Shown: piece after piece, positions 49,388 to 49,453 of the stretch
How the letters are laid out: every line of letters begins with the position of its first letter
How positions within the stretch are numbered: position 1 is the stretch's first letter
Source: Eledone cirrhosa
Lineage: Eukaryota
Reading direction: 5' to 3'
Assembly: GCA_964016885.1 (NCBI GenBank)
Contig: OZ024749.1
Location: 40,672,001-40,736,000 of the forward strand
DNA: 64,000 nucleotides
Made by a program: the position numbers and the translations under genes
The notes under the pieces: model-generated
Databases searched by the model: none
What the model saw: only the letters and a program-made list of their open reading frames with translations
Told to the model about the DNA's origin: nothing

Positions 49388-49453
49388 CCGACGTGAGGTA
49401 TATGATTTTTAATGCAATGAAATATCTATGATCGTCGGCAAATCACTGATGAG
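49388..49453 (+). ncRNA. Permuted hammerhead candidate (family H, variant 3)
   Basis: CCGACG-UGA-GGUAU-A^-UGAUUU-uuaaugcaa-U-GAA-AUAUC-UAU-GAU-CGUCGG-c-AAAUCA-CUGAUGA-G. Confidence 0.68.

What the first reader, a model, noticed from the sequence alone, without database searches (positions are those of the whole stretch)
49388..49438. Box C/D-like kink-turn in stem III may make the permuted fold possible
Seen in all three variants: C-stem (AUGCC/AUACC/AUAUC with GGUAU), a 3-nt bulge (UAC/AAU/UAU), then GAY opposite UGA, then a 6-bp helix. This fits the standard k-turn consensus (tandem G.A/A.G pairs followed by U.U or C.U). The 3' strand of that helix runs with a 0-1 nt linker into the distal end of stem I, which a straight stem III could not reach. 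Inference: the kink folds stem III back so a monomer can close, and an L7Ae-family protein (15.5K/SNU13) might modulate cleavage. The alternative is a strand-swapped dimer.
Basis: partly seen in the sequence, partly recalled or inferred. Interest (0 to 1): 0.8.

Follow-up and report, generated by a model that had tools for sequence, protein, structure and literature searches.

The report
Kink-turn in a scrambled hammerhead ribozyme
A self-cutting RNA motif whose parts come in a rare scrambled order is repeated thousands of times in this animal genome, and it carries a conserved sharp-bend motif (a kink-turn) placed where the RNA must fold back on itself to close.

Summary
Window 49388-49438 is stem III of a hammerhead ribozyme in the non-circular order S-G-C, with a standard kink-turn sequence: 5-bp helix, 3-nt bulge, G.A/A.G, U.U, then a 6-bp helix. 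The family has 12,345 genomic copies; 93% keep all four G/A positions, against 95% for the catalytic GAAA. The flanking helices covary. Unrelated-looking families in this genome, the 3' end of a LINE (here and in two metagenome relatives) and two published Naiad Penelope-like elements keep the motif while changing the stems. The far ends of stems I and III and a new helix are joined by 0-4 nt, so stem III must bend back. The k-turn is one hinge among several: a 21-copy subfamily has only a plain bulge. 'Box C/D-like' and protein control are not general, because the pair next to the G.A pairs varies. Host element: 454-688 bp non-coding tandem units with Penelope-like insertion features. Cleavage, monomer versus dimer and expression are untested. 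My searches found no report of a k-turn in a hammerhead.

The parts
49211..49517 (+). Solo, 5'-truncated copy of a non-coding repeat unit (family A), starting at a (TA)n run; holds one ribozyme
   Evidence: BLAST of tandem units from other loci, 95-97% identity to the closest units
49357..49360 (+). 5' strand of helix b (GUCC), pairs with 49454-49457; one arm of the junction that replaces stem II
   Evidence: 94% of cells paired, one pair changed on both sides in 6 of 30 rows
49362..49381 (+). Hairpin c, second arm of the junction; this copy has a private G>A change at 49376; hairpin absent in family B
   Evidence: 3 of 6 pairs changed on both sides
49383..49387 (+). 5' strand of helix d (UUGCA), pairs with 49413-49417; joined with 0 nt to the far end of stem III
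   Evidence: 2 of 5 pairs changed on both sides; kept with other sequences in families B, C, D
49388..49396 (+). Non-bulged strand of the k-turn NC helix: 6 paired bases, then U(3n) G(2n) A(1n)
   Evidence: 5 of 6 pairs changed on both sides; G2n 73 of 75, A1n 70 of 75
49397..49402 (+). Block S: stem III strand GGUAU (k-turn C helix) and A17; predicted cleavage after 49402 (AUA)
   Evidence: By analogy with hammerhead cores (PMC10085705); cleavage not tested
49403..49412 (+). Stem I 5' strand (UGAUUU) and UUAA linker to helix d
   Evidence: Stem I: 5 of 6 pairs changed on both sides; linker UAA shared by families A, B, C
49413..49426 (+). Block G: helix d 3' strand, U11.1, GAAA, stem III strand (A)UAUC
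   Evidence: Sequence; 10.1-11.1 is A-U 62, G-U 39, G-C 18, U-A 2, C.A 6, other 6 of 133
49427..49438 (+). Bulged strand of the k-turn: 3-nt bulge UAU, G(1b) A(2b) U(3b), then 6 paired bases
   Evidence: G1b 74 of 75, A2b 74 of 75; bulge sequence varies, length does not
49439..49457 (+). 1-nt linker, stem I 3' strand, CUGAUGA (49446-49452), G10.1, helix b 3' strand: block C
   Evidence: Sequence
49469..49517 (+). 3' tail (about 40 nt, limits approximate) present at only one end of inverted pairs
   Evidence: 10 of 10 head-to-head pairs have the tail on exactly one copy; example at window 14908-15268
15148..15198 (+). Stem III with k-turn of a second variant (3b.3n C.U); tailed half of an inverted pair
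14939..14989 (-). Same variant, inverted partner without tail
52302..52352 (-). Stem III with k-turn of a third variant (U.U; CUGA on the non-bulged strand)
58193..58243 (+). Third variant, first copy of a 529-bp tandem unit; G12 mutated to U, so probably dead
58722..58772 (+). Third variant, second copy of the 529-bp unit

Best explanation
The stretch is stem III of a type-SGC (non-circularly permuted) hammerhead ribozyme in a non-autonomous, probably Penelope-mobilised retroelement. The RNA forms a closed cage. At one end is the catalytic core, with stem II replaced by a junction (one 10.1-11.1 pair, helix b, optional hairpin c, helix d). At the other end the far ends of stem I, helix d and stem III meet through linkers of 4, 0 and 1 nt. 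Stem III points away from stem II, so it has to turn back. The 3-nt bulge with tandem G.A/A.G pairs, 5 bp from the core, folds as a true k-turn and supplies that turn within one molecule, helped by Mg2+ and by the closing helices rather than by an obligatory protein. The folded RNA cuts after AUA (49402), which in tandem units would release unit-length RNAs that can be circularised and copied back into (TA)n sites. Shown: motif, conservation, covariation, insertion anatomy. Inferred: the kinked 3D fold, monomer state, cleavage, circles, mobiliser.
For: Four G/A positions intact in 11,502 of 12,345 copies, against 11,502 of 12,068 for GAAA. 17 of 33 pairs changed on both sides, 0 of 500 shuffles as high, slid controls at most 44% paired (30 hand-picked variants). 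Across families A, B/F and C (131 of 155 core matches from k-turn-free searches) only 8 of 66 unanchored columns share one base at 80% or more, and 3 of them are A1n, G1b, A2b (p=0.005; 0.017 at 75%, 0.17 at 85%). The position that drifts is 2n (U in family C, A in family D), the one known to vary in natural k-turns (PMC5061560). -1b.-1n is C-G in families A, C and D, the pair that favours folding (PMC8191799). The same design with a standard k-turn and a 6-bp C helix lies just after the stop codon of a LINE in two metagenome contigs (L402, L403), and at the 3' end of two published Naiad consensus sequences (by eye). Crude geometry closes only with a sharp kink.
Against: Subfamily C2 (21 exact copies on several chromosomes) has C at 1n, so G1b pairs normally and only a plain bulge remains; all 21 also have a GUU site, so they may be weak cutters (recalled rule). 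Within family A alone, invariance of the four positions is unremarkable: 34 of 66 unanchored columns are invariant over 8 clusters. One published Naiad end has a near-straight stem III (10 bp, 1-nt bulge, 4 bp, by eye), which a monomer could close only by fraying. The geometry uses my assumed rise and angles, not coordinates. Conservation among dead genomic copies mostly reflects their youth. No cleavage, structure or expression data.
Confidence: 0.62

Rival explanations
1. The active form is a strand-swapped dimer (two molecules, or two ribozymes of one tandem transcript). Each stem III runs from one core to the stem I end of the other, and the k-turn only sets the angle between the two cores.
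For: Copies often lie in tandems 454-688 bp apart. Dimer cleavage is known for amphibian retrozyme hammerheads (PMC7229834, passages) and for Penelope-associated ones (title only, reference list). The near-straight published Naiad stem III and the plain-bulge subfamily fit a dimer more easily.
Against: None of the family-A helices is self-complementary, unlike the palindromic stem III of minimal Penelope hammerheads. Nearly every family examined keeps some hinge in stem III and short fixed linkers, as a closed monomer needs. The k-turn arm lengths (about 9 stacked layers each side) close the monomer in the crude model.
Confidence: 0.15
2. Only a flexible bulge is needed. The G.A/A.G pairs are an inherited sequence that stiffens the helix or adds little, and no classical k-turn forms.
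For: Subfamily C2 spread with a plain bulge. Published Naiad ends show a 3-nt bulge, a 5-nt bulge on the other strand, a 3-way junction or a large internal loop at this place (by eye). In family C, 2b.2n is A.U and could pair normally.
Against: A1n, G1b and A2b persist across families whose stems share no sequence, including a LINE lineage with another helix length. A plain bulge at about 120 degrees (recalled) leaves 27-42 A to bridge.
Confidence: 0.13
3. The k-turn is mainly a protein-gated switch: it stays open, and the ribozyme off, until 15.5K/SNU13 (or the element's own protein) binds. This would let uncut RNA serve as template.
For: The focal subfamily and family B have U.U at 3b.3n and U at L3, as in box C/D k-turns, which need L7Ae-family proteins (PMC5689011 abstract). 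Genomic copies hold the whole ribozyme at their 3' end, also in the LINE, so the template was uncut there or circular.
Against: 3b.3n is not held at U.U: among 75 unbiased family-A copies 3n is G 31, U 26, A 17, C 1; 3n=G or 3b=C folds in Mg2+ alone. Exact boxes C and D are not kept. L3 is A in 11 of 30 family-C copies.
Confidence: 0.1

Closest known systems
Type-SGC hammerheads (HRIMA-1 and variants; Eckert et al. 2023, PMC10085705)
   Same: Block order S-G-C, full core (CUGANGA, GAAA, NUH), short linker from stem I to the strand before GAAA.
   Different: Those come only from assembled metatranscriptomes (supplement note 1). [quoted passage not shown] Here stem II is a junction, stem III is long and kinked, and the motif is in an animal genome in over 12,000 copies. 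Their search pattern needed CGAAA, a 2-bp stem II and at most about 15 nt after stem III, which would miss this form. 'kink' and 'octopus' occur 0 times in text and supplement.
Standard k-turns (Kt-7, SAM-I, U4, box C/D) and non-standard Kt-23
   Same: 3-nt bulge followed by G.A and A.G, C-G closing pair; 2n drifts to U or A in sister families as in Kt-23.
   Different: Here the k-turn sits inside a pseudoknotted ribozyme and both arms are tied at their far ends. 3b.3n spans both ion-folding and protein-dependent classes. No snoRNA boxes are kept.
Animal non-LTR retrozymes (Cervera and de la Pena 2020, PMC7229834; Li et al. bioRxiv 10.64898/2026.07.22.740005)
   Same: Non-coding, low-GC (38-45%) tandem units with one hammerhead each; proposed link to Penelope-like elements.
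   Different: Those carry type I hammerheads in 150-450 bp units; here type SGC in 454-688 bp units. Circular RNA is not shown here.
Naiad Penelope-like elements (Craig et al. 2021, PMC8557442)
   Same: (TA)n targets, inverted 5'-truncated partner, 30-40 bp tail at one end. Two published cephalopod Naiad ends carry the same ribozyme design, with a C helix and bulge like family B.
   Different: The copies here have no ORF. I found no autonomous element ending in the family-A sequence. The paper reports Naiads as lacking canonical hammerheads and did not recognise the permuted ones.

Membership tests
Standard k-turn | Duplex with a 3-nt bulge followed by G.A (1b.1n) and A.G (2b.2n) | tested here: met
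   Focal copy; 93% of 12,345 copies; family B 2n=G in 19 of 26
Standard k-turn | Paired C helix and NC helix on either side, supported by covariation | tested here: met
   NC helix 5 of 6 pairs changed on both sides; C helix fully different but paired in families B, C, D
Standard k-turn | Core kept in all related families | tested here: not met
   2n=U in 27 of 30 family-C copies, 2n=A in family D (non-standard k-turns); 1n=C in subfamily C2
Standard k-turn | Kinked 3D fold (about 50 degrees) and L7Ae-family binding | not testable with these tools
   No RNA 3D or binding tool; one search is a crude length budget only
Box C/D snoRNA k-turn | Box C RUGAUGA and box D CUGA with U.U at 3b.3n (box sequences recalled) | tested here: not met
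   Focal copy reads AUGAUCG and GUGA; 3b.3n varies; no snoRNA match in Rfam
Type-SGC hammerhead | Core CUGANGA, GAAA and NUH site in the order S-G-C | tested here: met
Type-SGC hammerhead | Stems I and III with covariation | tested here: met
Type-SGC hammerhead | [quoted passage not shown] | tested here: not met
   Only 10.1-11.1 can pair (0 bp in family D); the two strands pair with upstream strands instead, helices b and d
Type-SGC hammerhead | Site-specific self-cleavage | not testable with these tools
   No RNA reads available
Animal non-LTR retrozyme | Non-coding low-GC tandem units with one hammerhead per unit | tested here: met
   23 units of 454-688 bp, GC 0.38-0.45
Animal non-LTR retrozyme | Type I hammerhead, unit of 150-450 bp | tested here: not met
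   Type SGC order; longer units
Animal non-LTR retrozyme | Expression as linear and circular unit-length RNA | not testable with these tools
   Only contigs of unknown library type were served
Non-autonomous Penelope-like element | (TA)n target, inverted 5'-truncated partner, 30-40 bp tail at one end | tested here: met
   10 of 10 head-to-head pairs, 0 convergent pairs; 40-nt tail at window 15229-15268
Non-autonomous Penelope-like element | Shared 3' end with an autonomous element in the same genome | tested here: inconclusive
   No RT or endonuclease ORF upstream on the same strand in the loci held; likeness to published Naiad ends is by eye and closest for family B

The most novel reading that the evidence does not exclude
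Non-circularly permuted hammerheads are not a metatranscriptome oddity but the normal ribozymes of Naiad Penelope-like elements (SGC order in 10 and CSG order in 6 published consensus ends read by eye), of their non-autonomous derivatives and of a group of RLE-type LINEs. They share a cage architecture with a hinge in stem III. Where the hinge is a k-turn, its open/closed balance, set by the 3b.3n pair and by 15.5K/SNU13 binding, gates cleavage and so decides whether a transcript is cut, circularised or kept whole as a template.
Probability: 0.25. Interest if true: 0.9.

Novelty: new variant of a known kind. Interest (0 to 1): 0.78.

Why it matters
It gives a concrete, testable answer to a question left open by the discoverers of type-SGC hammerheads: how the far end of stem III can be tied with almost no linker to the opposite side of the ribozyme (PMC10085705, Discussion). 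It moves this permutation from unassigned metatranscriptome contigs into an animal genome at over 12,000 copies, with natural variants that form a ready mutational series (standard k-turn, 2n=U, 2n=A, plain bulge). It also offers an explanation for why Naiad elements were reported to lack hammerheads: standard descriptors cannot see the permuted order. A hammerhead at a LINE 3' end and a k-turn inside a hammerhead were not found in my literature searches. A k-turn that the fold depends on would also be a natural handle for protein-controlled ribozyme switches.

Tried and rejected
Rfam: no hammerhead or snoRNA match, only a tRNA-like hit, so the library cannot see this order. Minimum-energy folding: recovers stem III and helix b in some copies, z from +0.9 to -3.3; it cannot model the pseudoknots, so it is not used as evidence. 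RNA evidence: no RNA holder listed. Laying four contig sets from one study shows common variants at 49390 and 49436 (a compensating pair) and none at the four G/A positions, but these runs may share the window's source and cannot show ends or expression. Search for an autonomous partner: Penelope-like ORF pieces lie near copies in L030, L037, L080, L083, L091 and L092, but on the other strand or across a (TA)n run, and those elements carry their own type I hammerheads; read as shared target preference. A motif from the published Naiad end found 2 decayed non-coding copies. The LINE protein had no relatives in prokaryote genomes or viral contigs. One search used a spacing one base too long and returned only insertion variants (55 hits). 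One search used a structure string shifted by one column and was redone. Family E (L199, L203, L217, L222, L226, L228, L261) is SGC-like but too decayed to read and was dropped. Four look-ups of earlier findings returned nothing. Literature searches that found no report of this motif; the library lacks most subscription journals.

Full report
Observation. Read 5' to 3': a 6-base strand, U-G-A, GGUAU, A (predicted cleavage after 49402), stem I strand, UUAA, a 5-base strand, U, GAAA, UAUC, bulge UAU, G-A-U, the partner 6-base strand, C, the other stem I strand, CUGAUGA. The site block comes first, then GAAA, then CUGAUGA: the order called type SGC by Eckert et al. (PMC10085705; I read the abstract, parts 2-4 of 8, most of the Discussion, and parts 1 and 5 of 42 of the supplement plus searches). 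The window has six copies of three variants. Rfam sees none of them.

Copy number and conservation. In the window's own genome (3.0 Gb, an animal; probably a cephalopod from the likeness to published sequences, not pursued) a pattern that leaves the k-turn free matches 12,345 places, control 0. Fixing the four G/A positions leaves 11,502 (93.2%). Freeing the catalytic GAAA instead gives 12,068, so GAAA is intact in 95.3%. The k-turn core therefore decays at about the rate of the catalytic core, and no large subfamily of family A has lost it. This alone is weak, since young dead copies conserve everything: 34 of 66 unanchored columns are invariant over 8 clusters.

Covariation. On 30 hand-picked family-A variants, 93.7% of cells pair, 17 of 33 pairs change on both sides, 0 of 500 shuffles reach that, and slid controls pair at most 44%. 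The helix beyond the G.A pairs and stem I each have 5 of 6 pairs changed on both sides. As a null, 0 of 80 viral-contig matches tested (of 120 returned) had all three helices, against 119 of 127 family copies.

Stem II is not an ordinary helix. The base after CUGANGA can pair with the base before GAAA (A-U, G-U, G-C, U-A or C.A in 127 of 133 copies). Beyond that the two strands pair with upstream strands: helix b (49357-49360 with 49454-49457) and helix d (49383-49387 with 49413-49417), with hairpin c between them. That makes a four-way junction next to the core (three-way in family B, which lacks c). At the other end, stem I, helix d and stem III are joined by 4, 0 and 1 nt. The molecule is a closed cage. 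Eckert's ribozymes have a normal 5-bp stem II and no such junction, and their search pattern would miss this form.

Divergent families. Looser patterns found other families with the same spacing and different stems (891 hits, control 49). Using only loci from k-turn-free searches (155 core matches, 131 kept with at least 4 pairs in each of three helices; the 24 dropped include chance matches and truncated, shifted or decayed copies), 8 of 66 unanchored columns share one base at 80% or more in families A (75 copies), B/F (26) and C (30). Three are A1n, G1b and A2b; the others are the UAA linker and the closing C-G pair (p=0.005; 0.017 at a 75% cut, 0.17 at 85%). Family B keeps the standard core (2n=G in 19 of 26, the family being older and more decayed). 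Family C has U at 2n in 27 of 30, as in ribosomal Kt-23; 2n is the position known to vary (PMC5061560, passages). Against the reading, subfamily C2 has C at 1n, which pairs with G1b and leaves a plain 3-nt bulge; it has 21 exact copies, all with a GUU site.

Outside this repeat. Family D (11 copies) has the same cage, with a 12-bp helix b and a 6-bp C helix, starting right after the stop codon of a LINE ORF (stop 60-61 nt before the site in 4 copies). The ORF has RT and zinc-knuckle matches; its restriction-like endonuclease type and the clade name HERO are recalled, not tested. Here 2n is A. Two relatives found through the protein alone in metagenome contigs (84% and 64% identical; 5 loci from 85 candidates) have a fully standard k-turn with an AAU bulge and U.G or U.U; a third (51%) is decayed, and two are short hits. 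In the supplement of Craig et al. (PMC8557442; passages and supplement searches; 60 of 62 CTGATGA places and 10 each of three other cores) I read by eye 10 Naiad 3' ends in SGC order and 6 in CSG order. Two cephalopod ones have a standard k-turn. The rest have other hinges: a 3-nt bulge, a 5-nt bulge on the other strand, a three-way junction, a 4x1 or a large internal loop, and in one case only a 1-nt bulge. The paper states that Naiads lack canonical hammerheads. These readings were not computed, and long lines of that file are cut.

Host element. Copies lie alone or in tandem units of 454-688 bp, 54-99% identical, GC 38-45%, pyrimidine-rich and non-coding. They end in (TA)n. All 10 head-to-head inverted pairs have a tail of about 40 nt on exactly one copy, and there are no convergent pairs. 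These are the insertion marks described for Penelope-like elements, and animal retrozymes have been linked to them (bioRxiv 10.64898/2026.07.22.740005, abstract and passages; its supplements are closed). I found no autonomous element ending in the family-A sequence. The focal copy (49211-49517) is solo and 5'-truncated, so it is probably an inert record of the active RNA.

Mechanism. Stems II and III stack coaxially in the solved hammerhead, so stem III points away from stem I. With 2.8 A per pair and assumed stem I angles, the far ends are 45-56 A apart for a straight stem III, 27-42 A for a plain bulge (120 degrees, recalled) and 4-13 A for a 50-degree k-turn; a 1-nt linker reaches about 14 A plus up to 18 A of backbone offset. 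This is a rough budget, not a model. I put 0.62 on a monomer closed by a real k-turn, 0.15 on a swapped dimer, 0.13 on a mere flexible bulge and 0.10 on a mainly protein-gated switch. On the protein idea: the focal U.U resembles box C/D k-turns, which need L7Ae-family proteins (PMC5689011, abstract), but 3n is G in 31 of 75 copies and 3b is C in 11, classes that fold in Mg2+ alone, and -1b.-1n is the favourable C-G (PMC4382518 Results; PMC8191799 passages). Cutting, circularisation by a host ligase (shown for type I retrozymes in PMC7229834, passages) and copying by a Penelope-like RT are inferred by analogy.

Novelty. Type SGC is known, from metatranscriptomes only. Nine literature searches found no report of a k-turn in a hammerhead, of type SGC in an animal genome, or of a hammerhead at a LINE 3' end; the library lacks most subscription journals. 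The motif works like a type-SGC hammerhead but fails the stem II criterion, so I file it as a new variant. Interest 0.78: the sequence case is strong and points at two stated open questions, but nothing here shows cleavage or the fold.

Noticed in passing
PMC8557442 supplement, Naiad consensus 3' ends: By eye, 10 ends carry SGC-order and 6 carry CSG-order hammerheads with fully paired stems; the CSG ones with a visible neighbouring header lie among nematode records. Eckert et al. had only two CSG sequences. This may explain the reported lack of hammerheads in Naiads.
   Followed up: partly
L271-L281, L402:1945-2075, L403:1940-2056: SGC hammerhead with a perfect four-way junction just after the stop codon of an RLE-type LINE, about 40 nt from the element's 3' end.
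   Followed up: partly
L409-L429 (subfamily C2): 21 copies with a plain 3-nt bulge instead of the k-turn, all with a GUU site; a natural control for the bench.
   Followed up: partly
window 47388 (+), 47196 (-), 48774 (-), 62698 (+); also 50752 (-): Minimal type I hammerhead-like motifs (CUGAAGA, long stem II, GAAA, AT-palindromic stem III) of the kind described in Penelope-like elements.
   Followed up: no
L091:1375-3802 (-), L092: Frameshifted Penelope-like element with RT, Cys linker and GIY-YIG pieces and type I hammerheads whose stem II (GGAC/GUCC) equals helix b of family A; suggests the SGC form arose by moving the site block into a type I ribozyme.
   Followed up: partly
L199, L203, L217, L222, L226, L228, L261: Decayed family E with SGC-like spacing, GUC site and near-palindromic stem I, with no clear k-turn.
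   Followed up: no
L178-L180: Long tandem arrays (at least 5 units of about 515 bp per locus) of the focal subfamily around G000:C1:81.6 Mb.
   Followed up: no
window 50878-51020: Long imperfect inverted repeat between (TA)n runs, MITE-like.
   Followed up: no
window 888-955 and 32217-32605: tRNA-like head (Rfam 30.5 bits) and a 196-bp tandem with a tRNA-like start, probably SINEs.
   Followed up: no
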